This document shows positions 20,326 to 33,708 of a stretch of DNA of 38,234 bases, in pieces. The position numbers and the translations under genes were made by a program. The stretch comes from an uncultured bacterium. Lineage in GTDB: Bacteria; Krumholzibacteriota; Krumholzibacteriia; WVZY01; JAKEHA01. Under the pieces are notes generated by a model. That model was not told the DNA's origin. It saw only the letters and a program-made list of their open reading frames with translations, and made no database searches. Location of the stretch: positions 1 through 38,234 of the forward strand of contig CAZCQM010000001.1 in the NCBI GenBank assembly GCA_964500785.1. Direction: 5' to 3'. Positions within the stretch are counted from its first letter, which is position 1. Each line of letters opens with the position of its first letter.

Positions 20326-21234
20326 ATGGCCATGCCCGTACGTAAGACTTCGACGCCCGCGACGCCGCGGGCACCGGCGACCCGCAGCGGCGCCGGCCCC
20401 GGGCGTTGGGTGCTTCCTCCTCTCGTGCTGTTCGCGATCATCGCCGCCGTGGGGGCTCCCTACTTCCTGCTTCCGACCGCGGAGCGTCTCCGGTCCCCGC
20501 TGCACGTCTGGTTCCGCCCGTCCGGCTACATCGGGCAGACGACGGGCCTCATCACGTTCGTCGGATTCCTGTTCATGTGGCTCTTCCCGCTGCGGAAGAA
20601 GTTCCGCAAGGCCGAGTACCTGGGCCCGGTTCCACGCTGGCTGGACGTCCACATCGGCGTGGGTCTAGTGCTCCCGCTGACCGGGGCCATCCACGCCGGG
20701 TTCCACGTGGGCGGCGTCATCGGGCTGGGCTACATCGCCATGCTCATCGTGTGTGCGAGCGGCGTCATCGGCCGCTACCTCTACGTGCGCATTCCGCGCG
20801 GCCGCAGCGGCGTCGAGCTGGGTCTGGGCGACGTCGCCGCCCAGCAGCGCGCGCTCCTCGGCGAGATCGCCGACGCGACGGGGCTTCCCGTGCCCGAGGT
20901 CCAGGAGGCGCTCAAGGTCGACACGTCTCCGGTTCGCAAAGGCATCGTCGCCGCCTTCCTCCAGATGATCCGGGATGACATGGAGCGCGCACGCGTTGTG
21001 CGGCGTCTTCGCAAGCGCCTCAAGGCACGGGGGTCGAGCGCGGCGTCCCTGCGCAAGGTCTCGACGCTGGCGCGCCGCCAGATGTCGCTCAGCCAGCAGG
21101 CGCGGCTGCTCGACGTGACGCAGGGCATCTTCCGTTACTGGCACGCGGCGCACCGCCCCTTCGCCATCACCGCGTTTATCGCCGTCACGATCCACGTCGT
21201 GGTCGTGGTCGCCGTCGGCGCCACCTGGTTCTAG
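20326..21234 (+). CDS. Five-TM membrane protein with two H-x13-H pairs (ferric-reductase-domain-like di-heme b candidate)
   Basis: Predicted TM3 is LDVH-IGVGLVLPLTGAI-H and predicted TM5 is AAH-RPFAITAFIAVTI-H. Each His pair is exactly 13 residues apart, and the two helices have the same orientation. Arg-rich N-terminus and loops fit a cytoplasmic location. Confidence 0.55.
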   Translation: MAMPVRKTSTPATPRAPATRSGAGPGRWVLPPLVLFAIIAAVGAPYFLLPTAERLRSPLHVWFRPSGYIGQTTGLITFVGFLFMWLFPLRKKFRKAEYLGPVPRWLDVHIGVGLVLPLTGAIHAGFHVGGVIGLGYIAMLIVCASGVIGRYLYVRIPRGRSGVELGLGDVAAQQRALLGEIADATGLPVPEVQEALKVDTSPVRKGIVAAFLQMIRDDMERARVVRRLRKRLKARGSSAASLRKVSTLARRQMSLSQQARLLDVTQGIFRYWHAAHRPFAITAFIAVTIHVVVVVAVGATWF

Positions 21235-21252
21235 CGATCGTCCGAGGCCGCT

Positions 21253-22671
21253 ATGTGGATCACTACGGTAGCATTCGTCGTTCTGACCGCGTTGTTCGTG
21301 GCGCGTCACATGCGCCGGCGTGCGGGCGACACCAAAGGCACCCTGTGCCCGCGCTGTCGCGCCAACGTCCCACCCGGCGCGGCGCGGTGCCCGCGATGCC
21401 ACGTGCCGATGCAGCTCTACGAGGTCGTGAGCGCGAAGGCGGTCACCGATGACGCGGCGTCCGGGGGCGGTGGCGACGCGCACGCCGTGGTCCGCGCCGA
21501 CCTGTGCGTCGGGTGCGGCGCGTGCGTGCCCGTTTGTCCCGAACCCAACGCCATCAAACTGGTGGGCAAGCTCGCCACGGTGAATTCGACGCTGTGCAAG
21601 GGGCACGGCAACTGCGTCGAGGCGTGCCCGGTCGGGGGCATCGTGCTGACGACGGGCGAGGCGGTCCACCGGGTCGAGGTCCCCGAGATCGATACTGATT
21701 TCGAGAGCAACGTGCGCGGTGTCTACGTGGTGGGTGAGCTGGGCGGCCGCGGGCTGATCAAGAACGCCATCAACGAGGCCACCGTGGCCATCGAGCACAT
21801 CGCCGACGACCTCGCGCTGCGGCGCAAGACCGACGCCGAATCGGCCGGTATCCTGGATGTCATCATCGTGGGGAGCGGCCCGGCCGGGCTCGCCGCGGGG
21901 CTCGCGGCGAAGGCGCGCGATCTGCGCTACCTGGTCCTCGAGCGGGGCGCCCTGGCGGACACGATCCGCAAGTACCCGCGGGCAAAGTTCTTGCTTGCCG
22001 AGCCGGTACGCGTCCCCTTGTACGGAAACCTCTGGGTGTCCGACGCCTCCAAGGAGACCCTCCTCAAGGTATGGGAAGAGATCATCCAGCGCACGGGACT
22101 GGACGTGCGCACCAACCACCGCGTCACCGGCGTGGCGCCGGAGGGCGGGCATCTCGTTGTCCGGACCCCGGAGGAGGAGTTCCGCGCGCGGCGCGTGGTC
22201 CTGGCCATGGGGCGTCGCGGAAACCCGCGCCGGCTGGGGGTCACCGGCGAGGATGCGGGCAAGGTCATCTACGACGTCGTCGACATGGAGTCGTTCGCGG
22301 GGCAGCAGATGCTCGTCGTGGGCGGCGGCGACAGCGCGGTGGAGTCGGCGGTCGGCCTGGCTCGACAGCCGGGTACGAAGGTCACCCTGAGTTACCGGGG
22401 CGAGGAGTTCAAGCGAGTCAAGGAACGCAACCGGACCAAGCTCGAGGAAGCGGTGCGCGGCGGAACGCTGCGCGCTCTCCTGCAGAGTCAGGTCAAAGAG
22501 ATTCGTGAAAAAGAAGTCGTCATTGAAGTCGAGGGGCGGGAGGAAGTGTTTGCGAACGATACGGTGGTCGTCCGCATCGGTGGCGATCCGCCGTTTGCGT
22601 TCCTCGAGCAGATCGGAATCCGGATCGTCAAGAAGGACATCCCGCTTCCGCAGGAGGAGGTCTTTGCGTAA
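21253..22671 (+). CDS. Membrane-anchored NAD(P)/FAD-dependent oxidoreductase with zinc-ribbon and 2x[4Fe-4S] ferredoxin domain
   Basis: N-terminal TM helix followed by RRR; CPRC...CPRC; CVGCGACVPVCP and CKGHGNCVEACP; Rossmann motifs VIIVGSGPAGLAAG and LVVGGGDSAVE. Confidence 0.75.
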   Translation: MWITTVAFVVLTALFVARHMRRRAGDTKGTLCPRCRANVPPGAARCPRCHVPMQLYEVVSAKAVTDDAASGGGGDAHAVVRADLCVGCGACVPVCPEPNAIKLVGKLATVNSTLCKGHGNCVEACPVGGIVLTTGEAVHRVEVPEIDTDFESNVRGVYVVGELGGRGLIKNAINEATVAIEHIADDLALRRKTDAESAGILDVIIVGSGPAGLAAGLAAKARDLRYLVLERGALADTIRKYPRAKFLLAEPVRVPLYGNLWVSDASKETLLKVWEEIIQRTGLDVRTNHRVTGVAPEGGHLVVRTPEEEFRARRVVLAMGRRGNPRRLGVTGEDAGKVIYDVVDMESFAGQQMLVVGGGDSAVESAVGLARQPGTKVTLSYRGEEFKRVKERNRTKLEEAVRGGTLRALLQSQVKEIREKEVVIEVEGREEVFANDTVVVRIGGDPPFAFLEQIGIRIVKKDIPLPQEEVFA

Positions 22672-22693
22672 CACGGGGCTGGCCGCGCGGCGA

Positions 22694-24496
22694 ATGGCAG
22701 GATGCCGAACGCGCGTGGCTCTCCTGGCGATCGTGCTCGTACTCGGTTCGACTGCGGGGGCTCGCGCGCAGGTGTCGCCCGGCCCCCTGTCGAAGGCACA
22801 CGCAGATCTGGACGGCACGCTGGGATGCGCCCGGTGTCACGGAAAAGGCGAAGGTGAAATGGATCGCAGGTGCATGGCATGTCACGGGGAAATCGCTTCC
22901 CTCGTCTCGAACCGCCGGGGCTTCCACGGGCGCGAGGCGTCGAAGGACTGCGCCCACTGCCACCCCGATCACGGAGGGCGGGACTTCGCGCTCGTCGCGT
23001 GGCCGGACAAGAGCCCGGATAAGTTCGATCACAAGCGGACGGGATGGGCCCTTCGCGGCAAGCACGCCACGGTGGAGTGCAAGAAGTGCCACACGGCCGC
23101 GCATCTGAGCACCGAAATGGCGGGACTGGTGAAGAACAAGGATCGCGACCTCATCTGGGTCGGCATGGACTCGAACTGCAAGACGTGCCACGAGGACGTT
23201 CACCGCGGCGCCCTGGGCCCGAACTGCGCGTCGTGCCACTCCGAGGAGGGCTGGCGCCCGGTCCCCGGGTTCGACCATGCGAAGACGACGTTCCCGCTCA
23301 CCGGTCTGCACGGCAAGGTGCCGTGCGCGAAGTGCCACGAGGCGCCCGGCCTCAAGCTCGCCCACGACAGCGCGGGCAAGCCGATCCCCCTGTACAAGCC
23401 GCTTCCGCACGACGAGTGCGGCGCGTGCCACGCCGATCCGCACAAGGGCGCCTTCGGCGCGCGATGCAGCAGCTGTCACGTGACGGCGGGCTTCAAGGTT
23501 ATCGAGAAGGGACGCTTCGACCACGACAAGACGCGGTACCCGCTCCGTGGCAAGCACGCCGCGCTCGCGTGCGCGAAGTGTCACGACGAGAAGACGGCGT
23601 GGGGCAAGAAGCCGCCCTTCGCGACCTGCGGCGGGTGTCACAGGGACGCCCATGCCGGCCAGGCGACGCTGGCGGGGAAGCCGGCGGACTGCGCGTCGTG
23701 CCACACGGTCGAGGGGTTCACTCCCAGCACCTACACGGTCGACGATCATGCGAAGACGGGCTTCCCACTGGTCGGCGCCCACGCGCGCAACGCGTGCAAG
23801 TCCTGCCACGGACACACGCCCGCCGGGTCCGACGCGCAGGTGGCGGCGCTGCTGGGTCCCGCGAAGGTGTGGTTCCGCCCGACCCACGACCGCTGCGTCG
23901 ACTGCCACCGCGACCCGCACGAGGGGCGCTTCTCGCCGGGAGGCGATCGCGCGCGCTCGAAGGACTGCGTGGCCTGTCACACGATGGAGAGCTTCCGCCC
24001 GTCCACGTTCGACGCCGCCGCGCACAACGACGCCCGGCTCAAGCTGGAGGGCGCGCACCGCGCCGTGCCGTGCCTGGCGTGCCATGCGGAGCTAGATCCC
24101 GGTTCCGAGGCCGCGCGGGCCGCTCAGAAGAAGGCCCGCAAGGGAGGACACGGCAAGAACACCGAAGCCGCGGGCGTGACGCTGCTGTTCACGAGCGACA
24201 AACGCGTGTGCCGCGACTGTCACGAGAGCGCCCACAGCACGCAGTTCGATTCGAAGAAGAACCACGGCGCCTGCGACGCCTGTCACGACTCGGAGCGGTT
24301 CCGGCCCGCGAGTCGCTTCGATCACGACAAGGTCAAGTCCTTCCCTCTGGAAGGCGCACACCAGAAGGTCGCGTGTGACAAGTGTCACCCGACCGTAACG
24401 ACTTCAAAAGGAAAGAAAATGATACTGTACCGGCCGCTCTCGTCGCGCTGCGAGAGCTGTCATACGAACGAGGATCTTCTCCGGATGCGCAATTGA
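22694..24496 (+). CDS. Periplasmic multiheme c-type cytochrome, 20 CXXCH motifs
   Basis: Signal peptide (STAGARA-QV). I counted 20 CXXCH by eye. The module FDH..T.FPL.G.H....C..CH recurs. The ATG at 22694 follows the previous stop at 22671; the listed 22505 start overlaps the upstream gene. Confidence 0.9.
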   Translation: MAGCRTRVALLAIVLVLGSTAGARAQVSPGPLSKAHADLDGTLGCARCHGKGEGEMDRRCMACHGEIASLVSNRRGFHGREASKDCAHCHPDHGGRDFALVAWPDKSPDKFDHKRTGWALRGKHATVECKKCHTAAHLSTEMAGLVKNKDRDLIWVGMDSNCKTCHEDVHRGALGPNCASCHSEEGWRPVPGFDHAKTTFPLTGLHGKVPCAKCHEAPGLKLAHDSAGKPIPLYKPLPHDECGACHADPHKGAFGARCSSCHVTAGFKVIEKGRFDHDKTRYPLRGKHAALACAKCHDEKTAWGKKPPFATCGGCHRDAHAGQATLAGKPADCASCHTVEGFTPSTYTVDDHAKTGFPLVGAHARNACKSCHGHTPAGSDAQVAALLGPAKVWFRPTHDRCVDCHRDPHEGRFSPGGDRARSKDCVACHTMESFRPSTFDAAAHNDARLKLEGAHRAVPCLACHAELDPGSEAARAAQKKARKGGHGKNTEAAGVTLLFTSDKRVCRDCHESAHSTQFDSKKNHGACDACHDSERFRPASRFDHDKVKSFPLEGAHQKVACDKCHPTVTTSKGKKMILYRPLSSRCESCHTNEDLLRMRN

Positions 24497-24522
24497 ACCG
24501 CCTGACGGCGAGGTGATTGGTT

Positions 24523-26487
24523 ATGGTTGCACATTTCATATGCGTCTCTTCCAGAATGACCGTGGCACTCGCGGCGACGGTCGCGCTCGTCCTGGCGGCT
24601 TCGTTGCCGACGGCCGCACGGGCGTCGGCGCCGAAGGCGAAGGTCGACAACCCGCACGGTGCCTTCAAGGAGGACTGCTCGATGTGCCACAGCGCCAGGG
24701 CCTGGAAGCCGGCGCAGATCGGGAAGAAATTCGATCACGAGAAGTACGGGGGCATCCCGCTGACGGGCGCGCATTCGACGGTCAAGTGCACGAAGTGCCA
24801 TACCAGCCTCGATTTTTCGACGGCGTCCGGCGCGTGCGTCGATTGCCACTCTGACGTCCACAACGGCGAGCTGGGCACCGATTGCGCCCAGTGTCACGGG
24901 ACCAAGAGCTTCAACGACCGCAACGACCAGATAAACATGCACCGCCTGACGCGATTCCCGCTGGAGGGAGCGCACCAGACGCTCGACTGCGATCTGTGTC
25001 ACAAGGCGTCGGCCCCCGGGTCGATGGTGTTCGTCAACACGCCGACGGAGTGCGAGTCGTGCCATATGCAGGACTACGCAGCCACGACCGCGCCCAACCA
25101 CGAGTCGGCCGGATTCAGCCATCAGTGCGAGTCGTGCCACAACGAGCTGGCCTGGTCACGCGTGCGTTTCGACCACGCCGAGACCAGCTTCCCGCTGACG
25201 GGTGCCCACGCGGCGCTGCAGTGCGACCGCTGCCATGAGGGCAACGTGTTCACGGGTCTCTCGACGGCGTGCGTATCGTGTCACCAGACCGACTTCGACG
25301 GCACGACGGACCCCAACCACGCCACCGCCGGCTTCTCGACCGACTGCGAGGTGTGTCATTCGACGACGACGTGGCAGGGTGCCAATTTCAACCATTCGGC
25401 GACGAACTTCCCGCTGACGGGCGCCCACTCCGCGGTGCAGTGCGACCAGTGCCACACAGGCGGCGTCTACACCGGACTGTCCACGGCGTGCGTGTCGTGT
25501 CATCAGACCGATTACGACGGAACCAACGACCCCGCCCACGCGGCGGCCGGCTTCCCGACCGACTGCGAGGCGTGCCATTCGACGACGACCTGGCAGGGGG
25601 CGGTATTCAATCACTCGGAGACGAACTTCCCGCTGACGGGGGCGCACGTGGCCGTCACCTGCGACCAGTGCCACGCCGGCGGCGTTTACTCCGGCCTCTC
25701 GACCGCGTGCATCTCGTGCCACCAGACCGACTACGACGGCACGACCGATCCCGCCCACGCCGCGGCCGGGTTCCCGACCGACTGCGAGGCGTGCCACACG
25801 ACGACGCGCTGGCAGGGCGCGGTCTTCAACCACTCGGCGACGAATTTCCCGCTGACGGGAGCCCACCTGGCCGCGACGTGCGACCAGTGCCACGCCGGTG
25901 GCGTGTACTCCGGACTCTCGACCGCGTGCATCTCGTGCCACCAGACCGACTACGACGGCACGACCGATCCCGCCCATGCATCGGCGGGGTTCCCGACCGA
26001 CTGCGAGGCGTGCCACACGACGACGACGTGGCAGGGCGCGATCTTCAACCACTCGGCGACGAATTTCCCGCTGACGGGGGCGCACCTGACGGCGACGTGC
26101 GACCAGTGCCACGCCGGTGGCGTGTACTCGGGTCTCTCGACGGCGTGCGTGTCGTGCCATCAGAGCGAGTACAACGGCACGACCAATCCGGCGCACGCGG
26201 CGGCGGGGTTCCCGACCGACTGCGAGGCGTGCCATACGACGACGCGCTGGGACGGCGCCACGTTCAACCACGACCCGTGGTTCCCGATCTACTCGGGCCG
26301 CCACGCCGGCCGGTGGAACCGGTGCGAGGACTGTCACCCCAGCGCCACCAGCTATACGACGTTCGACTGTCTGGGGTGTCACCCGCACGACGACAAGGCG
26401 GGGACCGACAGCCACCACCGGGGCATGAACGGCTACTCGTACGAGTCGACCCGGTGTTATTCGTGCCACCCGAACGGGAGAGCCTAG
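24523..26487 (+). CDS. Periplasmic multiheme c-type cytochrome, 25 CXXCH motifs, built from tandem triheme modules
   Basis: Signal peptide (PTAARASA). I counted 25 CXXCH by eye. The start is ambiguous (TTG 24517, ATG 24523, ATG 24556); ATG 24523 sits 6 nt after AGGTGA. Confidence 0.9.
   Translation: MVAHFICVSSRMTVALAATVALVLAASLPTAARASAPKAKVDNPHGAFKEDCSMCHSARAWKPAQIGKKFDHEKYGGIPLTGAHSTVKCTKCHTSLDFSTASGACVDCHSDVHNGELGTDCAQCHGTKSFNDRNDQINMHRLTRFPLEGAHQTLDCDLCHKASAPGSMVFVNTPTECESCHMQDYAATTAPNHESAGFSHQCESCHNELAWSRVRFDHAETSFPLTGAHAALQCDRCHEGNVFTGLSTACVSCHQTDFDGTTDPNHATAGFSTDCEVCHSTTTWQGANFNHSATNFPLTGAHSAVQCDQCHTGGVYTGLSTACVSCHQTDYDGTNDPAHAAAGFPTDCEACHSTTTWQGAVFNHSETNFPLTGAHVAVTCDQCHAGGVYSGLSTACISCHQTDYDGTTDPAHAAAGFPTDCEACHTTTRWQGAVFNHSATNFPLTGAHLAATCDQCHAGGVYSGLSTACISCHQTDYDGTTDPAHASAGFPTDCEACHTTTTWQGAIFNHSATNFPLTGAHLTATCDQCHAGGVYSGLSTACVSCHQSEYNGTTNPAHAAAGFPTDCEACHTTTRWDGATFNHDPWFPIYSGRHAGRWNRCEDCHPSATSYTTFDCLGCHPHDDKAGTDSHHRGMNGYSYESTRCYSCHPNGRA
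25153..26247 (+). repeat. Five in-frame tandem copies of a 219-bp (73-aa) unit inside the 25-heme cytochrome gene
   Basis: Units begin with a TGG (Trp) codon at 25153, 25372, 25591, 25810 and 26029. Copies 3 and 4 share a 62-nt identical run (25696-25757 and 25915-25976). A more degenerate unit precedes at about 24930. Confidence 0.9.
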
Positions 26488-26493
26488 ACGCCG

Positions 26494-28116
26494 ATGCCGC
26501 GCTTCGCTCGTACGACTCTGGTGATGTTCGCGCTGCTTGTGGCGGCGTCGGTGCCGATTGCGACCGCGGCAGGCCACCGGATCACCTATCTGACGATCTC
26601 GACGGCATACATCGATGCCGGCCGCGACGACGGGGTGGCCGTGGGGGCGAGCGTCACGGTCGTGCGCGCGGGCAAGATCATCGCCACGCTGCTCGTGACC
26701 GACGTGTCGTCGAACCGGGCCGCGTGCACGATCCAGTCGTCCACCGAACCGGTCGCCATCGGGGATGCGATCCGGTACTCGCCCGTCAAGGCTCCCACGC
26801 CCGTCGACACGACGCGCACGGCGCCGCCGAGCCGCACGTTCTCGGGTAAGGTCGTGACGGGCACCGACGAGCCGGCGCCCACGCGAGCCGTGTCGTGGGC
26901 GCGCCGCAACGGTCTCCGCGGCCAGATCGGCGTGCGCTACCTCGGCATCATCGACCAGGGCGGCGTCGGCGGGAACCTGTCGCAGCCGTCCGCGGACATC
27001 CGGGTCGACGGTGCACGCGTGGGCCACTCGCCGTTCGACCTTCAGGTGGATGTTCGCGCGCGTCACTCGTACCAGTCCGTCCCGGGCGGCGACGGGTACG
27101 ACAACGGCCAGACCCGCGTGTACCGCATGAACAGCCGGTGGCACTCGCCCCATGACCGTCTCCGCGTGACCGTGGGGCGCCAGTTCTCGTCGTCGCTGAC
27201 GAGCATCAGCACGTTCGACGGCGCCCAGCTGGAATACGATTTCTCCCCCCGCTGGGGTATGGGGACGTTCGCGGGCACGCAACCCAGCATGGACGGCAAC
27301 TACGCGTTTTCCACCGATGTCAGAGAATACGGCGCCTTCGCGCGGCTGCGGTCAAAGCCGCGGTCCACGACACGCTGGGAAGCCGTCGTCGCCGGGATCG
27401 GCTCCTACCAGTTCGACAAGATCAACCGCGAGTACATGGCGCTGGTGGGACGCGTCAACGCGCCGAGGCTGTCCGTGATGGCGCAGCAGGAGATCGACGT
27501 CAACCGCGGCTGGAAGCACGACGCCGAAAACAGCCAGGTGTCGCTGACCAGCACGTTCGCGACGGCGCGCTACCGTCTGACACCCCACGTCGACCTCGAC
27601 GCCGGGTACGACAATCGGCGCAACGTCCGCTTGTATCGCGACTACATCAGTCCGGAGACGCTGTTCGACGATTCGTACCGGCGCGGCACCTGGGGCGGCG
27701 TCGGCGTGCGCCTGACCGCGCAGTACCGCCTGGGATTCTCCGCGCGGTCCAGCGGTGGCGGCAGCTCGGGCGACGCGACCTCGTATACGATGACCGGATC
27801 CGCCAACCGGCTCACCCCGCTTCACCTGAGCTTCCGGCTCCGGTCCACGCGCTACACCAACACGCGCCTGGACGGCTGGATGCACACGCTCTCCGGCAAC
27901 GTTCCCGTCGGGCCGCGCTGGCTCATGGAGCTCTACGGCGGCGTGCGCGACGAAAAGGGCCGGGGGGCGGTTATGGACACGAACACATCGTGGTTCGGCG
28001 GCAACCTGGACGTGGGTGTGGGTCAGAACTGGTACATCAACATGTCCGCGGAGCGCAACGGTGAGGGCCAGACCGCCTACGACCAGGTCTACACCAGCGT
28101 GAGCTGGCGCTTCTAG
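26494..28116 (+). CDS. Outer-membrane beta-barrel protein with a small N-terminal soluble domain (candidate porin partner of the cytochromes)
   Basis: Signal peptide (PIATAAG). About 100 aa of N-terminal beta-rich domain, then a Pro/Thr linker, then about 420 aa of alternating amphipathic strands ending ...YTSVSWRF (terminal Phe). Starts 6 nt after the cytochrome stop. Confidence 0.6.
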   Translation: MPRFARTTLVMFALLVAASVPIATAAGHRITYLTISTAYIDAGRDDGVAVGASVTVVRAGKIIATLLVTDVSSNRAACTIQSSTEPVAIGDAIRYSPVKAPTPVDTTRTAPPSRTFSGKVVTGTDEPAPTRAVSWARRNGLRGQIGVRYLGIIDQGGVGGNLSQPSADIRVDGARVGHSPFDLQVDVRARHSYQSVPGGDGYDNGQTRVYRMNSRWHSPHDRLRVTVGRQFSSSLTSISTFDGAQLEYDFSPRWGMGTFAGTQPSMDGNYAFSTDVREYGAFARLRSKPRSTTRWEAVVAGIGSYQFDKINREYMALVGRVNAPRLSVMAQQEIDVNRGWKHDAENSQVSLTSTFATARYRLTPHVDLDAGYDNRRNVRLYRDYISPETLFDDSYRRGTWGGVGVRLTAQYRLGFSARSSGGGSSGDATSYTMTGSANRLTPLHLSFRLRSTRYTNTRLDGWMHTLSGNVPVGPRWLMELYGGVRDEKGRGAVMDTNTSWFGGNLDVGVGQNWYINMSAERNGEGQTAYDQVYTSVSWRF

Positions 28117-29927
28117 CGGGCGGTCGAACCGGGGGACGGCTGGTACATCGCATCGATGTCGTCCCGGTAGGCTTCTTCCACGATCTTCCTTCGAACCTTC
28201 AGCGTCGGCGTGAGGTGACCCTCCGCGACGGTCAGCTCCCGGTCCAGGACCGTGAAGTTCTTGATCTTCTCGAACTGTGCCAGCTCTTCGTTGGCGCGGT
28301 CGACGATCCCCTGATAGAGCGCGCGCACCTCCGGCGATGCCGTGAGGCGCTTCCGGTCGGAAAGGTCGAGGCCGCCCGCCCGCGCCCACGCGTCGAGCCG
28401 GTCGAAGTTGGGCACGATCAGCATCGAGATGAAGGGCCGGCGATTGCCCACCAGGACGGCTTCGGTCACGAACTTGTTGCGCCGGATGCGTGCCTCGATG
28501 GGTTGCGGCGCCACCTTCTTGCCCCCCGCGGTGGCAATGAGATCCTTCTTCCGATCGGTGATGTAGAGGAACCCGTCTCCGTTGATGTGTCCGATGTCGC
28601 CGGTGTGGAACCATCCGCCGGCCAGCGCCTCGTCCGTCTGCTCGGGTTTGCGGAAATAGCCCTGCATGACGTTGTCGCCGCGCGCCAGGATCTCCCCGTC
28701 GTCCGCGATCTTGACCTCGACGCCGGGAAGGGGGCGGCCCACGCTGCCGATGCGCCAGTTCTCCTGCGTATTGACCGCGATGACGGGGGACGTCTCCGTG
28801 AGGCCGTATCCCTCGAGGATGGGGATACCGGCCGCCCGGAAGAACTCGGCGATCTCTTTCGACAACGGCGCACCCCCCGAGATGAAGAAGCGAAGCCGGC
28901 CGCCCACCCGCTCTCGGAGCGTGCGGAACGCGAGCGCGTCGGCCACGGTCCGTTGCAGGCGCGTCGCGGCGTTCGCGCCGCCCGCCGCCGTCTGTTCGAC
29001 GTAGGCGCGCCCCACCGCCATCGACCAGTGGAAGATGCTCTTGCGCAGAACGGACCCTTTCGCGACGGTGTCCAGGATGCGCGCATACATCTTCTCGTAC
29101 ACGCGGGGCACGCTGCAGACAACCGTCGGGCGCACCTCGCGAAGGTTGTCGGGCACGCGCTCGATGGACTCGGCGTACACGATCGAGGTTCCCGCCGTCA
29201 TCATGCAATAGAACCCCGCGGTGCGCTCGAAGACGTGGCTCAGGGGCAGGAACGACAGGCACGTATCCGAGGGGCGCAGGTCGAACACGGTCAGGCACTG
29301 CCGGATGTTGGCCATGAAGTTGCCGTGCGAGAGGATCGTGCCCTTGGGCTCGCCGGTGGTGCCCGACGTGTAGATGATGCTGGCCCACTCGCGGGGATGG
29401 ATTTCGGCGACGAGGGCGCGATAGGTTCGGTCATCCACGGGCTCGGCCGCACGCGCGAGGAACGCGTCGAACGTTTCGACGCCGTCCCCGCCGGCGTCTG
29501 CGTCGAAGGCGACTACGTGCTCGAGGAGTGGAAGCCGCGACCGCAGGCCCCGCACCGTGGCCGCGTGCTCCTTCGATGAGACGAAGATGACGCGGGCGTC
29601 CGCGTCGCGCAGCAGGTACTCGATGTTCGCGGGCGTGAGCGTGGGATAGATGGGAACGTCGACCACGCCCAGAGACAGCAGGGCCAGGTCGATGGCGGCC
29701 CACTCCGGCCGGTTCTCGGACAGGATCGCCACGCGGTCCGCACGCGCCAGACGCAACGCGCGCAGGGCGGCGACCGCCGCGCGCACGCGGCCGTACATGT
29801 CGGCGTGCGAGATGTCGAGCCAGTTCCCGTCGCTCTTGTGGCGAAACGCGTCCGGCTTGCCGAACGCATCCAGGGACGCGAGGAACTGGGCGGGAACCGA
29901 ACTCTGGAACTCCACGGGGGTCACCAT
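28113..29927 (-). CDS. Long-chain fatty-acid--CoA ligase (AMP-forming, ANL superfamily)
   Basis: IIYTSGTTGEPKGT (AMP-binding P-loop), GYGLTETSP, TGDIG...DGFLYITDRKKD, KVRRK. ATG at 29927-29925 with GGAGG upstream; the listed 683-aa ORF over-extends. Confidence 0.88.
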   Translation of the reverse strand: MVTPVEFQSSVPAQFLASLDAFGKPDAFRHKSDGNWLDISHADMYGRVRAAVAALRALRLARADRVAILSENRPEWAAIDLALLSLGVVDVPIYPTLTPANIEYLLRDADARVIFVSSKEHAATVRGLRSRLPLLEHVVAFDADAGGDGVETFDAFLARAAEPVDDRTYRALVAEIHPREWASIIYTSGTTGEPKGTILSHGNFMANIRQCLTVFDLRPSDTCLSFLPLSHVFERTAGFYCMMTAGTSIVYAESIERVPDNLREVRPTVVCSVPRVYEKMYARILDTVAKGSVLRKSIFHWSMAVGRAYVEQTAAGGANAATRLQRTVADALAFRTLRERVGGRLRFFISGGAPLSKEIAEFFRAAGIPILEGYGLTETSPVIAVNTQENWRIGSVGRPLPGVEVKIADDGEILARGDNVMQGYFRKPEQTDEALAGGWFHTGDIGHINGDGFLYITDRKKDLIATAGGKKVAPQPIEARIRRNKFVTEAVLVGNRRPFISMLIVPNFDRLDAWARAGGLDLSDRKRLTASPEVRALYQGIVDRANEELAQFEKIKNFTVLDRELTVAEGHLTPTLKVRRKIVEEAYRDDIDAMYQPSPGSTAR

Positions 29928-30142
29928 ACCTCCTGGTGGCGCGCGGCGCCATCTTTGCTTCATCGAGCAAGACACGGGCCAGAGCGGGCGGGCGGCCCGC
30001 CGGCGGCCCGGGACGCCGCGGATGCGGGCGGTGGTCAAATAGGGTTTGAAATGGCCCGCCCCCGCGGGTAGAGTAAAGCCCGATCCTGACCCGCCGCCCG
30101 GCGGAACGATATCCCGACCAACCAAGTTATTCGGAGGTTTCC

Positions 30143-30847
30143 ATGGCTCTCGATGCCACCGCATTCATCGGCAAGCTGGACGAGACGATCTCTTTGCACG
30201 CGATGCTGCAGCACCCGTTCTACCGGGCCTGGAACGAGGGCGGGCTCTCCAGGGAGACCCTGCGCGAGTACGCCAAGCAGTACTACGCCCACGTCCGCTT
30301 CTTTCCGCGCTACGTGAGCGCCGTGCACGCCTCGTGCGACGACATCCGCGTCCGCCAGCTGCTCCTCGAGAACCTGATCGACGAGGACCGCGGGGACGAC
30401 AACCACCCCGAGTTGTGGATGCGCTTCGCCGACGGCCTCGGCGTGGATCGCGGCGCGGTGCGCGACGCGGATCTCCTGCCGGCGACGCGCGAGTCGGTGG
30501 CCGAGATGGTGCGCCTGACGCGCAGCGACGACTTCCGCGACGGGCTGGCCGCTCTCTACGCCTATGAATCGCAGATCCCGCTGGTCGCGAAGACGAAGCG
30601 GGAGGGCCTGGCGTCGTTCTACGGCCTGAACGACGCGCGTTCGGTGGACTTCTTCACCGTCCACGAAGAGGCCGACATCGTCCACAGCCAGGTGGAGCGC
30701 GATCTGCTCGCCGAGCACTGCCGCACCGACGCCGCCCAGGCGCGCGCGCTGCAGTCGGCCGGCGACGGCGCGCGGGCGCTGTGGCTCTTTCTCGACGGCG
30801 TGCACGAGGCGTACTGCAAGGACGCGGTTCCGTCGCGCGAACGCTGA
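30143..30847 (+). CDS. CADD/CT610-like heme-oxygenase-fold di-iron protein (PqqC/TenA superfamily); candidate alternative p-aminobenzoate synthase
   Basis: Collinear with my recollection of Chlamydia CT610: HPFYRAWNEGGLSRETLREYAKQYYAHVRFFPRYVSAVHASCDD...LLENLIDEDRG.DNHPELW...AALYAYESQIP...FFTVHEEADIVH. Confidence 0.78.
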   Translation: MALDATAFIGKLDETISLHAMLQHPFYRAWNEGGLSRETLREYAKQYYAHVRFFPRYVSAVHASCDDIRVRQLLLENLIDEDRGDDNHPELWMRFADGLGVDRGAVRDADLLPATRESVAEMVRLTRSDDFRDGLAALYAYESQIPLVAKTKREGLASFYGLNDARSVDFFTVHEEADIVHSQVERDLLAEHCRTDAAQARALQSAGDGARALWLFLDGVHEAYCKDAVPSRER

Positions 30848-30871
30848 CACTCCATCGACAGGACGAGACAC

Positions 30872-31567
30872 GTGGCAAAACACATCGGCATCGTCGCCTG
30901 CAGTGCGGAGGGCGCCGCCCTCTGCTACACCACCGTCTGCACCGAGGCCCCCGACCTGATGGGAAAGAAGCACGCCCACCCCGAGGTGAGCATGCACACG
31001 CATCCCTTCAGCGATTACGTGCGCCTGATGGAGGCGGGGAACTGGGATGGAGTGGCTGCCCTGATGCTCTCCTCGGAGGCCAAGCTGGCCAAGTGCGGCG
31101 CCGAGCTGATCATCTGCCCGGACAACACGGTGCACCGCGTCTACGACCAGGTGGTCAAGCAGGGCAAGCTGCCCTGGCTCCATATCGCGGGCGAGGTCGC
31201 GACCGAGGCCAAACGCCGTGGTTACAAACGCGTCGGGCTCATCGGCACGGCATACACGATGGAGGCGTCCTTCTATAATGAGAAGCTGGGCGCGGAGGGC
31301 ATCGACGTCGTGCTCCCCGCCGAGAAGGACCTCAAGCTCGTCAACCGCATCATCTTCGACGAGCTGGTCGCGGCCCAGTTCACCGCCGAGTCGCGCGCGT
31401 ATTTCACGGGTCTGATCAACGAGATGCGCGCCGGCGGCTGCCAGGCGATCGTCCTGGGCTGCACCGAGGTGCCGCTGATCATCACCGAGGAGAATTCTCC
31501 ACTCCCGGTGCTCGACTCGACGCGCCTGCTCGCCCGCGCCGCGCTCAAGTCGTCGCTGGAATCGTAG
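30872..31567 (+). CDS. Aspartate/glutamate racemase-family amino-acid racemase
   Basis: IGIVACSAEGAALCY...LIICPDNTVH...VGLIGTAYTM...IVLGCTEVPLI carries the two catalytic Cys contexts of the Asp/Glu racemase fold. GTG start. Confidence 0.85.
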   Translation: MAKHIGIVACSAEGAALCYTTVCTEAPDLMGKKHAHPEVSMHTHPFSDYVRLMEAGNWDGVAALMLSSEAKLAKCGAELIICPDNTVHRVYDQVVKQGKLPWLHIAGEVATEAKRRGYKRVGLIGTAYTMEASFYNEKLGAEGIDVVLPAEKDLKLVNRIIFDELVAAQFTAESRAYFTGLINEMRAGGCQAIVLGCTEVPLIITEENSPLPVLDSTRLLARAALKSSLES

Positions 31568-31682
31568 CCGTCGAACGGGTCATGCGGGCTCGCGAGGATT
31601 GCTCGAACGCGAGTCCGCAGCGCGATTCCAGATGTCGTCCGCGCGAGGACCCGAGCGGGAGGGCAACCTCGCGAGCCCTCTG

Positions 31683-32489
31683 CTAGGTATCCCAGTCGTC
31701 CGGCTCCAGGAAATAGAAATGATGGCCCGGCGGTGAGCCGTGGCCGACGTTGGGGGCGTTCTCGATGGCGCGCGTCACGTAGCGCTTGGCGCGGCGGACG
31801 GCGTCGCCCAGGCCGTCTCCCAGCGCGAGGCGCGCGGTGATCGCGGCCGAGAACGTGCACCCCGTCCCGTGGACGCTTCGTTCGCGCGCCGGTCGGTCGG
31901 GGTGGAGCACGTCGATGCACTCTTCGGTTACCAGCACGTCGGTGGCCAGGGCGAACGCCGCGTGCCCGCCCTTCACCACGACCGCGCGCGGTCCCAGCGC
32001 GCGGATGCGCTCCCCGGCGCGCTTCATGTCCTCGACGGACTCGATGGGCATGGCCGCGAGCGCGGCCGCTTCGTGCAGGTTCGGCGTCGCCACCAGCGCC
32101 AGCGGGAGCAGCGAGTCACGCAGGGCGGCCACGGCCTCGTCGCGCAGGAGCCGGTAGCCGCTCTTGGAGATCATCACCGGGTCGACGACGAGCCGGTCGA
32201 CGCCGCGCGCGGACAGCGCCGCCGCCACGGTTTCGATGATCGCCACCGACGAGAGCATCCCCGTCTTGACGGCGGCGACGTCGAGGTCCTCGAAAACGGC
32301 GTCGAGCTGTGCGCGGATGAGGTCGGGGGGAAGATCGAGGGCCGCGCGGACCTCGCGCGTGTTCTGGGCCGTGACGGCCGTGACGACCGACGCGCCGAAC
32401 ACCCCGAGCGCCTGGAAGGTCTTGAGGTCGGCCTGGATGCCGGCGCCCCCGCTCGAATCGGACCCCGCTATGGTGAGTGCCTGTTTCAT
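31683..32489 (-). CDS. thiD: Hydroxymethylpyrimidine/phosphomethylpyrimidine kinase
   Basis: [30 protein letters not shown]...KTGML...[10 protein letters not shown]. The ATG is at 32489-32487; the listed ORF over-extends by 51 codons. Confidence 0.9.
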
Positions 32490-32564
32490 GCCGTTCCCGG
32501 TCTCCAGACCCGCGCGATCGCGACCCGATCCGCTGTGGCATCGCCTCCCGTGCCAGTGTACCAT

Positions 32565-32588
32565 AAGGCCGTTCGCGCGAACGGCCTT
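32565..32588. promoter_or_regulatory. 24-bp perfect palindrome AAGGCCGTTCGCGCGAACGGCCTT between divergent thiD and the S2P gene
   Basis: Read directly; it equals its own reverse complement. It ends 6 nt before a TATATT hexamer (32595-32600) that lies 16 nt upstream of the ATG at 32617. Confidence 0.4.
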
Positions 32589-32616
32589 CGCGCCGTATAT
32601 TACGTAGCGAGTCCCC

Positions 32617-33708
32617 ATGAAATGGTCCATCCGCATCGGCAAGCTGTTCGGAATCCCCGTCTACATCCATGTGACGTTCATTCTGTTCCTGGTCTGGATC
32701 GCCATCATCATCTGGCGGCAGGCGCAGGACATCAGCATGGTCGCGTGGGGGATCCTGTTCATCCTGTCGATCTTCCTGTGCGTCGTGCTGCACGAGTTCG
32801 GCCATGCCCTCACCGCCCGCCGGTACGGGATATCGACGCGCGACGTGACGCTCCTGCCCATCGGCGGGCTGGCGCGACTGGAGCGCATGCCGGAGGACCC
32901 GCGGCAGGAGCTGTGGGTGGCGCTGGCGGGGCCGGCGGTGAACGTCGTCATCGCGCTGGTTCTGTTCCTGGGGCTGCGCGCATCGGCCACCGCGCTCGTA
33001 CCCGACTCGGTGATCATCACGCGCCAGTCTTTCCTGGCGCGGGTGATGTTCATCAACGTCTTCCTGGTGCTGTTCAATCTGCTGCCCGCGTTCCCCATGG
33101 ACGGAGGGCGCGTGCTGCGTGCGCTGATGGCGACGCGCATGCCCTACCCGCGCGCCACGCACCTGGCCGCGGTCATCGGGCAGACCATGGCCTTCCTGTT
33201 CGGATTCGCCGGCCTGTTCTGGAACCCGATGCTCATCTTCATCGCCCTGTTCGTCTGGATCGGTGCGGCTCAGGAAGCGAACATGGTGCAGATGCGTTAT
33301 TCGCTGGCCGGGATCCCGGTGGGTCGCGCGATGGTGACGGATTTCCGCACCCTCGCGCCCACCGACACGCTCTCCGCCGCCGTCGATCTCACGCTGGCCG
33401 GAACGCAGCGCGACTTCCCGGTGATCGACGGCGACCGCATCGTGGGCGTGCTGATGCAGAAGGACATGCTGGCGGCGCTCGCCCGCGGCGGCCCCAACGT
33501 GCCGGTCGCGGACGCCATGCAGCGCGAGTTCGAGATGGTGGAAGCGTCCGAGAACCTGGAAGCCGCCTACCGGCGCCTGAGCGCGCGCCGGTGCAGCACC
33601 GCGCCGGTGTCGTTCCAGGGCCGTCTGGTGGGCCTGGTGACGATGGACAATATCGGGGAGCTGCTCGCGATCCAGGGCGCGCTGGACCGGGTGCCACGCG
33701 CCGGATGA
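32617..33708 (+). CDS. Site-2 protease family (M50) zinc metalloprotease with C-terminal CBS pair
   Basis: HEFGHALTARRYG (HExxH), NLLPAFPMDGGRVL (second metal-ligand motif) and a CBS-type tail (FPVIDGDRIVGVLMQKDML...PVSFQGRLVGLVTMDNI). Confidence 0.88.
   Translation: MKWSIRIGKLFGIPVYIHVTFILFLVWIAIIIWRQAQDISMVAWGILFILSIFLCVVLHEFGHALTARRYGISTRDVTLLPIGGLARLERMPEDPRQELWVALAGPAVNVVIALVLFLGLRASATALVPDSVIITRQSFLARVMFINVFLVLFNLLPAFPMDGGRVLRALMATRMPYPRATHLAAVIGQTMAFLFGFAGLFWNPMLIFIALFVWIGAAQEANMVQMRYSLAGIPVGRAMVTDFRTLAPTDTLSAAVDLTLAGTQRDFPVIDGDRIVGVLMQKDMLAALARGGPNVPVADAMQREFEMVEASENLEAAYRRLSARRCSTAPVSFQGRLVGLVTMDNIGELLAIQGALDRVPRAG

What the first reader, a model, noticed from the sequence alone, without database searches (positions are those of the whole stretch)
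25153..26247. Five near-identical 219-bp tandem repeats encode triheme modules with an exactly balanced His ligand count
Seen: the units start at 25153, 25372, 25591, 25810 and 26029, all in frame. Copies 3-5 are nearly identical at DNA level, including a 62-nt perfect match between copies 3 and 4. Each 73-aa unit (W-Q-G-A-x-F-N-H-S-x-T-N-F-P-L-T-G-A-H ... CDQCH ... C(I/V)SCH ... D-P-A-H ... CEACH) contains 3 CXXCH motifs plus exactly 3 additional His and no Met. That is enough for three bis-His hemes per unit.

Established: Geobacter makes polymers of triheme c7-type domains (12- and 27-heme proteins) proposed to act as nanowire or capacitor proteins.

Inference: this is a recently expanded, modular heme wire. 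The repeat identity makes copy number prone to recombinational change and to collapse or expansion in short-read assemblies.
Basis: partly seen in the sequence, partly recalled or inferred. Interest (0 to 1): 0.62.

Follow-up and report, generated by a model that had tools for sequence, protein, structure and literature searches.

The report
Modular 25-heme cytochrome wire gene
The repeats are real and encode three-heme building blocks of a 25-heme electron-carrying protein, but it is a small, ordinary member of a very large, partly noticed and untested family of variable-length "heme wire" cytochromes, encoded beside a probable outer-membrane pore.

Summary
Five in-frame 219-bp units sit at the stated coordinates. 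Each encodes 3 CXXCH, 3 further His and no Met. They are 73-90% identical in DNA, not near-identical. The array is really about 8 units: two degenerate units upstream and a 3-heme cap downstream, plus one N-terminal heme (25 = 3x8+1).

The gene (24517/24556-26487) is the variable-length cytochrome of a conserved five-gene cluster found in 40 or more of 53 related loci from about ten phyla:
- a di-heme-b-like membrane protein;
- a membrane-anchored Fe-S flavoprotein;
- a 20-heme cytochrome;
- this 25-heme cytochrome;
- a probable beta-barrel.

By parts and membrane-protein motifs the cluster matches the published but untested PCC3 porin-cytochrome type.

Orthologues carry 13 to 121 hemes, mostly 3n+1, and 13 to 25 within the window's own genus. 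End units are orthologous across species. Interior units cluster by species, which indicates unequal recombination or gene conversion.

The window's copies are not recent (dS 0.31-0.47). The closest relative, a 10-contig assembly, has the same 25 hemes, so an assembly artefact is unlikely. The copy 3-to-4 junction has no independent read support.

It is not a member of the Geobacter c7-polymer family. Verdict: a new member of a known kind.

The parts
24517..26487 (+). Gene for the 25-heme c-type cytochrome ('cytB'). The ORF starts at TTG 24517. ATG 24556 (MTVALAAT...) is the more likely start. The stop is at 26485-26487.
   Evidence: ORF list. 25 CXXCH in 656 aa. Pfam Cytochrome_C7 97 bits, Cytochrom_CIII 60 bits, MtrC/MtrF II-IV domain 43 bits.
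24556..24624 (+). Sec-type signal peptide (MTVALAATVALVLAASLPTAARA|SA). It has no lipobox Cys.
   Evidence: Hydrophobic N-terminal stretch and the sequence read directly. The cleavage site is inferred.
24676..24690 (+). Single N-terminal heme site (CSMCH) ahead of the first unit. This is the '+1' of the 3n+1 heme count.
   Evidence: Motif positions. The 3n+1 count holds in 94 of 120 homologues and in all same-genus orthologues.
24715..25149 (+). Two degenerate triheme units (aa 67-131 and 136-211). They are orthologous one-to-one across species.
   Evidence: Unit profile scores of 31 and 62 bits. Each forms a cross-species clade with support 0.97-1.0.
25153..25371 (+). Core unit 1, the outlier: 73-77% DNA identity to the others. 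It groups with the first core unit of related species.
25372..26247 (+). Core units 2-5 (starts 25372, 25591, 25810, 26029). They are 81-90% identical in DNA and form one clade to the exclusion of all units of other species.
   Evidence: Identity matrix. Clade support 0.95. Conversion-tract test: pairwise p about 0.015 for 3/4 and 4/5, global p = 0.02.
26248..26484 (+). C-terminal 3-heme cap (CEDCH, CLGCH, CYSCH). It is orthologous across species.
   Evidence: Unit profile 13 bits. 76% identical to the cap of L005. Cross-species clade support 1.0.
20326..21234 (+). Neighbour: a roughly 300-aa inner-membrane protein with about 5 TM segments. It carries W-x3-H-x13-H in TM3 and TM5 and SGxxG in TM4. 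It is probably a di-heme-b protein.
   Evidence: Hydropathy and His positions. The motifs are conserved in 15 orthologues. They match the PCC3/PCC4 membrane-protein signature of He et al. 2017. There is no Pfam or NCBIfam family.
21253..22671 (+). Neighbour: a flavoprotein with an N-terminal TM anchor, a zinc ribbon, a 2x[4Fe-4S] ferredoxin domain and a pyridine-nucleotide-disulfide-oxidoreductase-type domain.
   Evidence: Pfam Pyr_redox_3 164 bits, Fer4_21, DZR. It is syntenic in most related loci.
22694..24496 (+). Neighbour: a 20-heme cytochrome ('cytA'), 600 aa with a signal peptide, built of degenerate versions of the same module. Its size is nearly constant across species (17-26 hemes).
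26494..28116 (+). Neighbour: a probable outer-membrane beta-barrel. It has a signal peptide, an N-terminal domain of about 100 aa and a C-terminal ...VSWRF.
   Evidence: It starts 6 nt after the cytB stop. It has 25 amphipathic beta-type segments against 15.9 +/- 3.4 in shuffles. It is syntenic in many loci. It has no Pfam family and no PDB relative. The barrel is inferred, not shown.

Best explanation
**What it is**
- The repeats encode the body of a Sec-exported 25-heme c-type cytochrome.
- The body is a chain of eight class-III (c3/c7-superfamily) triheme modules of about 73 residues, plus one N-terminal heme.
- Each module supplies three CXXCH sites and three invariant distal His. All hemes are therefore most likely low-spin bis-His and form one continuous electron-hopping chain.

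**Where it works (inferred)**
- The protein is the variable-length member of a conserved five-gene, PCC3-like cluster.
- The proposed path is: cytoplasmic Fe-S flavoprotein, di-heme-b membrane protein, constant-length 20-heme cytochrome, this cytochrome, outer-membrane barrel.
- It would carry electrons across and probably beyond the cell envelope.
- I favour this cytochrome as the outward-reaching element, because its length is free to vary while the partner's is fixed.

**How the array evolves**
- The two terminal regions are fixed and orthologous across species. They are probable docking ends.
- The interior modules are gained, lost and homogenised by unequal recombination and gene conversion. 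This gives 3n+1 hemes everywhere.
- In this organism the array is old enough (10-27% DNA divergence between copies) to be stable and assemblable.

**Shown versus inferred**
- Shown: the anatomy, the conservation, the synteny and the copy-number variation.
- Inferred: heme ligation, location and direction of electron flow.
For: **Array and motifs**
- The unit profile finds 8 units.

**Conservation of ligands**
- The distal His are invariant in 130 three-unit segments from 28 loci.
- They are 96-99.9% conserved in 1,796 units, with no conserved Met.

**Family signals**
- Pfam Cytochrome_C7, Cytochrom_CIII and the MtrC/MtrF II-IV domain all score above their cut-offs.
- A unit profile hits the solved 16-heme HmcA (E = 4.8e-7), the nine-heme cytochrome (E = 7e-4) and MtrC (E = 0.005).

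**Cluster**
- Five-gene synteny holds in most of 53 loci from about ten phyla.
- The membrane protein carries the published PCC3/PCC4 motif set.

**Copy number**
- cytB orthologues carry 13-121 hemes, whereas cytA carries 17-26.
- Same-genus orthologues carry 13, 13, 13, 16, 16, 16, 19, 22, 25 and 25 hemes, all 3n+1.
- End units are orthologous across species and interior units cluster by species.
- There is a gene-conversion signal, global p = 0.02.
- The nearest relative (72% aa identity, a 10-contig assembly) has the same 25 hemes.

**Structure and family size**
- A three-unit AlphaFold2 model is confident (pLDDT 84.9).
- Family size: 5,364 representatives of 50%-identity clusters at E <= 0.001, with proteins up to 2,321 aa and 32 units.
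Against: - No experiment exists for any member of the family.
- Neither cytochrome has a lipobox or any export signal beyond a Sec signal peptide, so an extracellular location is not shown.
- The barrel is inferred only from sequence features. It has no family and no solved relative.
- The whole-protein model was poor (pLDDT 51). The good three-unit model found no fold match in the PDB. No coordinates were available to measure His-to-heme geometry.
- Homology to the proteobacterial type PCC3 proteins was not tested directly.
- The copy 3-to-4 junction (about 25726-25880) is not covered by any independent contig. One 148-nt unitig from run X1 is a mosaic that differs at 4 bases from the window's 4-to-5 junction.
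- No RNA run holds the gene.
Confidence: 0.68

Rival explanations
1. The copy number of five core units is an assembly artefact. Collapse, expansion or a chimeric path through the repeats in a low-coverage short-read metagenome would then have produced it.
For: - The genome is a 394-contig MAG.
- The source runs are salt-marsh metagenomes at about 5x depth.
- Independent k=31 contigs break inside the array and none covers 25726-25880.
- One unitig is a mosaic of the 3-to-4 and 4-to-5 junctions.
Against: - Copies differ at 10-27% of positions and the longest exact shared run is 62 nt, so 100-150-nt reads place uniquely.
- An independent contig of run X1 reproduces 24400-25725, through copies 1, 2 and most of 3, without a single difference. 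Other pieces tile 25881-26230.
- The nearest relative, in a 10-contig assembly, has exactly the same 25-heme architecture.
- The frame is intact and the count obeys the family's 3n+1 rule.
Confidence: 0.1
2. The protein is a soluble periplasmic electron store (capacitor) or a periplasmic relay. It does not pass through or beyond the outer membrane. The constant-length neighbour cytA would then be the barrel-inserted partner.
For: - The protein has only a Sec signal peptide. It has no lipobox, and the Bacteroidota orthologues end in the same cap with no T9SS C-terminal domain.
- The proteobacterial PCC3 periplasmic cytochromes are also built of 7-8 repeats of 59-67 residues carrying 21-24 hemes.
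- The Geobacter c7 polymers are periplasmic (own knowledge).
Against: - Orthologue length runs from 13 to 121 hemes. The long forms could not lie extended in a periplasm. cytA, by contrast, keeps 17-26 hemes, as expected for a fixed gap.
- The gene is immediately followed by the barrel gene, 6 nt downstream.
- Its two ends are conserved as if they were docking sites.
Confidence: 0.2
3. It is a true member of the Geobacter c7-type triheme polymer family (GSU1996/GSU0592, 'nanowire_3heme').
For: - Pfam Cytochrome_C7 (PF14522, 'c7 and related') matches with 97 bits in 6 stretches.
- Unit size (73 aa) and heme count (3) equal those of c7.
Against: - TIGR04257 nanowire_3heme scores 25.0 bits against a cut-off of 40. 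CytC7_Geobact scores 19.9 against 120.
- Profile search of solved structures gives GSU1996-type fragments E = 3 and 7.5, PpcA E = 8.9 and c7 (3h4n) E = 0.27. HmcA gives 4.8e-7.
- The ligand order here is H..H..CXXCH..CXXCH..H..CXXCH. In c7 it is HxxH..CXXCH..H..CXXCH..CXXCH (own knowledge of PpcA).
- There is no conserved Met for a His-Met heme.
Confidence: 0.05

Closest known systems
PCC3 porin-cytochrome c gene cluster (He et al. 2017, PMC5566968; Hoover et al. 2023, PMC10734462; Sideroxydans sp. CL21 preprint 10.1101/2025.02.27.639646)
   Same: - Same parts list: a beta-barrel, two large repeat-built multiheme cytochromes and a roughly 300-aa membrane protein.
- The membrane protein has five TM segments, SGxxG in TM4 and two W-x3-H-x13-H motifs.
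[quoted passage not shown]
- One cytochrome is of nearly constant size and the other of very variable size.
- Heme numbers step by three (21, 24, 27 in PCC3).
- The function is untested in both.
   Different: - PCC3 was described in Proteobacteria with a different gene order.
- The PCC3 papers I read do not mention a flavoprotein. Here a membrane-anchored Fe-S flavoprotein is a conserved member of the cluster.
- Direct sequence homology to the type PCC3 proteins was not tested here.
- In PCC3 the regular repeats of 59-67 residues are reported for the constant 'periplasmic' cytochrome. Here the regular 73-aa units are in the variable one.
[quoted passage not shown]
   Same: - Related loci of this family come from the same taxa.
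- Saprospiraceae loci here carry 57-67 hemes, and a Bryobacteraceae locus carries 121 hemes.
- These are probably the same protein family at its long end.
   Different: - That paper reports only motif counts and a predicted secreted location. It reports no module structure, no gene cluster and no evolution.
- Identity of the families is inferred from taxon and size, not tested.
GSU1996 / GSU0592 c7-type polymers of Geobacter sulfurreducens (TIGR04257)
   Same: Tandem triheme modules of about 70-75 residues form one long heme chain. They were proposed to act as a wire or capacitor.
   Different: - The match is below the family cut-off.
- There is no significant match to the solved fragments.
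- The order of ligand His relative to the heme sites differs.
- All hemes here are bis-His.
- Copy number here is far more variable (4 to 40 or more modules, against 4 and 9).
- This protein is embedded in a barrel-containing cluster.
Class III multiheme cytochromes: 16-heme HmcA (PDB 1z1n), nine-heme cytochrome c (19hc, 1duw) and the MtrC/MtrF pentaheme domains II/IV (PF22113)
   Same: - These are the best sequence-profile matches among solved structures (E = 4.8e-7, 7e-4 and 0.005).
- The Pfam MtrC/MtrF II-IV model scores above its cut-off.
- They share closely packed bis-His hemes.
   Different: - The similarity is confined to the heme-site scaffolds.
- Those proteins are not regular tandem arrays and do not vary in module number.

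Membership tests
PCC3 porin-cytochrome cluster | [quoted passage not shown] | tested here: met
   - The genes lie at 20326-28116 on one strand, with gaps of 6-59 nt.
- The same set is found in most of 53 related loci.
- The barrel is inferred from sequence features only.
PCC3 porin-cytochrome cluster | Membrane protein with five TM helices, SGxxG on TM4 and W-x3-H-x13-H on TM3 and TM5 (He et al. 2017) | tested here: met
   - TM3: W-LDV-H-x13-H.
- TM4: SGVIG.
- TM5: W-HAA-H-x13-H.
- The motifs are conserved in 15 orthologues.
- The definition was read.
PCC3 porin-cytochrome cluster | Cytochromes of low complexity, built of repeats each holding heme sites, with about 26-30 residues per heme | tested here: met
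   - 656 aa / 25 hemes = 26.
- The protein has 8 triheme units.
- The published repeat tables were read.
PCC3 porin-cytochrome cluster | Sequence homology to the type proteins of Sideroxydans lithotrophicus ES-1 or Leptothrix cholodnii SP-6 | not tested
   - No reference sequence was on hand.
- An attempt to reach proteobacterial genomes through locus L030 landed in a small non-proteobacterial phylum.
Geobacter c7-type triheme polymer (TIGR04257 nanowire_3heme) | Score at or above the curated cut-off of the family model | tested here: not met
   25.0 bits against a cut-off of 40.
Geobacter c7-type triheme polymer (TIGR04257 nanowire_3heme) | c7 ligand pattern, including one His-Met heme per domain in GSU1996 | tested here: not met
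   - There is no Met in the five units.
- No Met position is conserved in 1,796 units.
- The order of His and CXXCH differs.
- The c7 and GSU1996 pattern itself is from my own knowledge, not from a tool.
Geobacter c7-type triheme polymer (TIGR04257 nanowire_3heme) | Significant similarity to the solved domains | tested here: not met
   Profile search of PDB sequences gave 1rwj E = 3, 3oue E = 7.5 and PpcA 4hc3 E = 8.9.
Class III cytochrome c superfamily (Pfam PF14522 / PF02085) | Score above the Pfam gathering cut-off | tested here: met
   PF14522 scores 97.4 bits (cut-off 24.8). PF02085 scores 59.6 bits (cut-off 22.9).
Class III cytochrome c superfamily (Pfam PF14522 / PF02085) | Bis-His axial ligation of every heme | not testable with these tools
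   - The ligand count is sufficient and the His are 96-99.9% conserved.
- No model coordinates with hemes were available.

The most novel reading that the evidence does not exclude
The tandem triheme array is a length-adjustable wire. Recombination between modules would tune how far the heme chain reaches beyond the outer membrane, from 13 to more than 120 hemes (very roughly 10 to 100 nm if extended).

The whole five-gene cluster would be a quinone-independent export line. In it a split, NOX-like module (Fe-S flavoprotein plus di-heme-b protein) feeds cytoplasmic NAD(P)H electrons directly into the cytochromes.

The cluster is spread through Latescibacteria/Krumholzibacteria-type bacteria, Gemmatimonadota, Acidobacteriota, Bacteroidota, Planctomycetota and others.
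Probability: 0.2. Interest if true: 0.8.

Novelty: new member of a known kind. Interest (0 to 1): 0.4.

Why it matters
- The family is large: more than 5,000 clusters at 50% identity.
- It occurs in abundant soil, sediment and wastewater phyla that are not known as metal respirers. No member has been studied at the bench.
- If these clusters move electrons across the envelope, extracellular electron transfer is much more widespread than the Geobacter and Shewanella models suggest.
- The simple rule found here gives a clear design logic that could be tested and borrowed for engineered protein wires. The rule is fixed end domains plus an interior of interchangeable triheme modules, always 3n+1 hemes.
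- The window's own gene adds a short, well-behaved example. At 25 hemes in about 620 mature residues, it would be easier to express than the giants.

Tried and rejected
- **Whole-protein AlphaFold2.** With a 15-row alignment it gave pLDDT 51 and pTM 0.22, which is unusable.
- **Three-unit model.** With 130 rows it gave pLDDT 84.9. Foldseek against the PDB returned no match at E <= 10, and no coordinates were available, so the His-to-iron geometry could not be measured.
- **phmmer of the whole protein against PDB sequences.** It found nothing.
- **Barrel profile against PDB sequences.** It found nothing meaningful.
- **Read support.** Only k=31 contigs of low-depth salt-marsh runs are served. 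They fragment inside the array and leave 25726-25880 uncovered, even at 88% likeness. Copy number could not be verified from reads.
- **Expression.** No RNA run holds the genes.
- **Direct test of PCC3 homology.** The one locus labelled as a proteobacterium (L030, 'Hyphomicrobiales') sits in a phylum of only 206 genomes, 76 of which carry the membrane protein. It did not lead to Proteobacteria.
- **2026 peat preprint on conserved EET clusters.** It concerns 8-13-heme systems, not this family.
- **Rejected reading: 'recent expansion' in the strict sense.** dS among the closest copies is 0.31-0.47.
Full report
**1. The observation**

Tandem Repeats Finder reports a single array at 25188-26271 with period 219, 4.9 copies, 85% matches and score 1350.

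| Comparison | DNA identity (of 219) |
|---|---|
| copy 1 vs the others | 159-168 (73-77%) |
| copy 2 vs copies 3-5 | 178-179 (81-82%) |
| copies 3 vs 4 | 198 (90%) |
| copies 3 vs 5 | 190 (87%) |
| copies 4 vs 5 | 195 (89%) |

The 62-nt perfect in-register match between copies 3 and 4 is real. Every unit has 3 CXXCH, 3 other His, 6 Cys and no Met. The facts are right, but 'near-identical' is too strong.

**2. Anatomy of the protein**

- The ORF encodes 656 aa from TTG 24517. ATG 24556 gives a typical Sec signal peptide, MTVALAATVALVLAASLPTAARA|SA, with no lipobox.
- The protein has 25 CXXCH motifs and 54 His.
- A profile of the five units also detects two degenerate units upstream (aa 67-131, 31 bits; aa 136-211, 62 bits) and a degenerate three-heme unit at the C-terminus (aa 578-655, 13 bits).
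- One single heme site (CSMCH) precedes them. The count is therefore 1 + 3x8 = 25.

**3. The ligand count**

- In 130 three-unit segments from 28 related loci, the three non-motif His of each unit are invariant or at least 90% conserved.
- In 1,796 near-full-length units from about 170 proteins they are kept at 95.8%, 99.9% and 96.3%. This is the same range as the CXXCH His (98.7-99.9%).
- No position holds Met in more than 3.5% of units.
- All-bis-His ligation is therefore well supported by conservation. It remains an inference, because no model with hemes or coordinates was available.

**4. Family relations**

- Pfam gives Cytochrome_C7 'and related' (97 bits, six stretches), Cytochrom_CIII (60 bits) and the MtrC/MtrF domain II/IV model (43 bits, cut-off 30).
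- The curated model for the Geobacter polymers, TIGR04257 nanowire_3heme, scores 25 bits against a cut-off of 40.
- The whole protein finds no solved relative by phmmer.
- A 30-unit profile searched against PDB sequences gave:

| Solved protein | E-value |
|---|---|
| 16-heme HmcA (1z1n) | 4.8e-7 |
| nine-heme cytochrome (19hc) | 7e-4 |
| MtrC | 0.005 |
| c7 (3h4n) | 0.27 |
| GSU1996-type fragments | 3 and 7.5 |
| PpcA | 8.9 |

- The order of ligands also differs. Here it is H..H..CXXCH..CXXCH..H..CXXCH. In c7 it is HxxH..CXXCH..H..CXXCH..CXXCH (the latter from my own knowledge of PpcA).
- The module belongs to the class III superfamily. It is not a member of the Geobacter c7-polymer family.

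**5. Genomic context**

The gene is the fourth of five co-directional genes.

| Position | Product |
|---|---|
| 20326-21234 | ~300-aa membrane protein with W-x3-H-x13-H in two TM segments and SGxxG in another |
| 21253-22671 | flavoprotein: TM anchor, zinc ribbon, 2x[4Fe-4S], pyridine-nucleotide oxidoreductase domain |
| 22694-24496 | 20-heme cytochrome, 'cytA' |
| 24517-26487 | this cytochrome, 'cytB' |
| 26494-28116 | 540-aa protein: signal peptide, C-terminal ...SWRF, 25 amphipathic beta-type segments vs 15.9 +/- 3.4 in shuffles |

- The last protein has no family and no solved relative. I read it as an outer-membrane barrel, by inference.
- tblastn of the five proteins against 53 related loci shows the same set, mostly in the same order. 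The loci come from MAGs labelled Latescibacteria, Eisenbacteria, Gemmatimonadales, Acidobacteriota, Binatia, Flavobacteriaceae, Saprospiraceae, Ignavibacteriales, Zixibacteria, Rhodothermia and Planctomycetota.
- The membrane protein's motif set is exactly the one published for the PCC3/PCC4 inner-membrane proteins (He et al. 2017).
- The parts list and the repeat-built, heme-dense cytochromes also match PCC3.
- The flavoprotein is not part of the published PCC3 description that I read.
- Direct homology to the proteobacterial type proteins could not be tested.

**6. Copy number among relatives**

- In the 53 loci, cytB-type ORFs carry 13, 16, 19, 22, 25, 28, 34, 37, 40, 51, 57-58 and 63-67 hemes. 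A Bryobacteraceae MAG carries 121 hemes in a 2,970-aa ORF. cytA stays at 17-26.
- Of the 120 best database homologues, 94 have 3n+1 hemes.
- In the window's own GTDB genus, ten species have orthologues with 13, 13, 13, 16, 16, 16, 19, 22, 25 and 25 hemes, all 3n+1. The 16-heme forms include a one-contig and a five-contig genome.
- The closest relative is G220 = L005, 72% aa identity, a 10-contig assembly labelled Candidatus Latescibacteria. It has the same 25 hemes and five core units.
- An exhaustive profile search finds 5,364 representatives of 50%-identity clusters at E <= 0.001 and 1,117 at E <= 1e-30. Proteins reach 2,321 aa with 32 units.
- The window's protein is at the short end of a very large family.

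**7. How the array evolves**

- In unit trees, the N-terminal degenerate units and the C-terminal cap form cross-species clades with support 0.97-1.0.
- The first core unit groups with the first core units of other species.
- The window's copies 2-5 form their own clade (support 0.95), sister to the last core unit of G220. Three of G220's units form another clade.
- Other species show the same by-species clustering. One Eisenbacteria MAG has 12 interior units with a median of 91% DNA identity, and some pairs are identical.
- Divergence values:

| Comparison | dS | dN |
|---|---|---|
| among window copies 3-5 | 0.31-0.47 | 0.04-0.07 |
| window vs G220, flanking parts and neighbouring genes | 0.60-0.97 | 0.16-0.23 |

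- A permutation test of runs of concordant polymorphic sites gives p about 0.015 for pairs 3/4 and 4/5, and a global p of 0.02.
- The ends are fixed. The interior is shaped by unequal recombination and gene conversion. In this lineage homogenisation came after the split from G220, but it is not recent.

**8. Is the array an assembly artefact?**

- The genome is a 394-contig MAG.
- The only public holders are salt-marsh metagenomes at about 5x depth, served as k=31 contigs.
- One independent contig of run X1 reproduces 24400-25725 with no difference. Short unitigs tile 25881-26230. Nothing covers 25726-25880, which includes the copy 3-to-4 junction.
- One 148-nt unitig differs at four bases from the window's 4-to-5 junction. 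These changes make the junction read like the 3-to-4 junction (TTTR|WQGAV) while the right side stays copy-5-like. It could be a strain variant with a conversion tract, an extra junction, or a chimeric unitig.
- Three things argue against an artefact: the 10-27% divergence between copies, the intact frame, and the identical architecture in the nearest relative. I rate an artefact at about 10%.

**9. Mechanism**

Shown: a Sec signal, 25 heme sites, sufficient and conserved His ligands, conserved synteny, and a fixed-length partner beside a variable-length one.

Inferred: the hemes form one chain. The cluster is a trans-envelope conduit running flavoprotein, di-heme-b protein, cytA, cytB, barrel.

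- cytA's constant 17-26 hemes fit a fixed gap such as the periplasm.
- cytB's 13-121 hemes fit an element whose far end is free. For this reason I favour it as the outward-reaching part.
- The main rival is a periplasmic capacitor or relay. It is supported by the lack of any export signal beyond Sec.
- The direction of electron flow, and whether NAD(P)H or quinol is the inner partner, are open.

**10. Novelty**

- PCC3 clusters with repeat-built cytochromes of variable heme number are published but untested.
[quoted passage not shown] These are probably this family.
- Earlier notes of this scan describe the same family in other genomes. I treated them as leads only.
- I did not find the following in the papers read: the 3n+1 rule, the fixed ends with a recombining interior, and the within-genus series of 13 to 25 hemes. 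These refine a known kind rather than define a new one.
- The window's gene is a new, short member.

Noticed in passing
L011:4-8916 (Bryobacteraceae MAG, contig JAXLQL010000018.1): A cytB-type ORF of 2,970 aa has 121 CXXCH motifs and 39 triheme units. More unit matches lie just upstream in other frames (a 727-aa frame and one more). The true protein may therefore be longer if a frameshift splits it.
   Followed up: partly
window 25982-26129 (run X1 unitig): A 148-nt contig from a salt-marsh run differs from the window at 26026-26028 and 26041. These changes turn the copy 4-to-5 junction into the copy 3-to-4 type (TTTR|WQGAV), while the right side stays copy-5-like. It may be a conversion variant in the population, an extra junction or a chimeric unitig.
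   Followed up: partly
L006:5752-9993 (Eisenbacteria MAG): A 51-heme orthologue has twelve interior 74-aa units with a median of 91% DNA identity, and some pairs are identical. This array is much younger than the window's.
   Followed up: partly
L008:5326-8832: The interior units fall into two alternating types (units 4, 7, 9 against 3, 5, 6, 8, 10). This suggests that a two-unit (146-aa) higher-order repeat was the unit of duplication there.
   Followed up: no
L019 (Flavobacteriaceae bacterium SZ-1-7): This record is not labelled as a MAG, and its contig has 338x coverage. It carries the full cluster with a 40-heme cytB. A cultured carrier may therefore exist for experiments.
   Followed up: no
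L030 (record labelled Hyphomicrobiales bacterium): Its genome sits in a phylum of only 206 genomes, 76 of which carry the membrane protein at E about 1e-90 to 1e-111. The proteobacterial label of the record looks doubtful.
   Followed up: no
window 24517 / 24523 / 24556: There are three possible starts for cytB: TTG 24517, the 654-aa form in the protein database, and ATG 24556. Only ATG 24556 puts a standard signal peptide at the N-terminus.
   Followed up: no
window 28113-33708: Downstream genes are unrelated to the cluster: an AMP-binding acyl-CoA-synthetase-like gene on the minus strand, a heme-oxygenase-like/TENA-family gene, an Asp/Glu racemase, a phosphomethylpyrimidine kinase and an M50 peptidase with CBS domains.
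   Followed up: no
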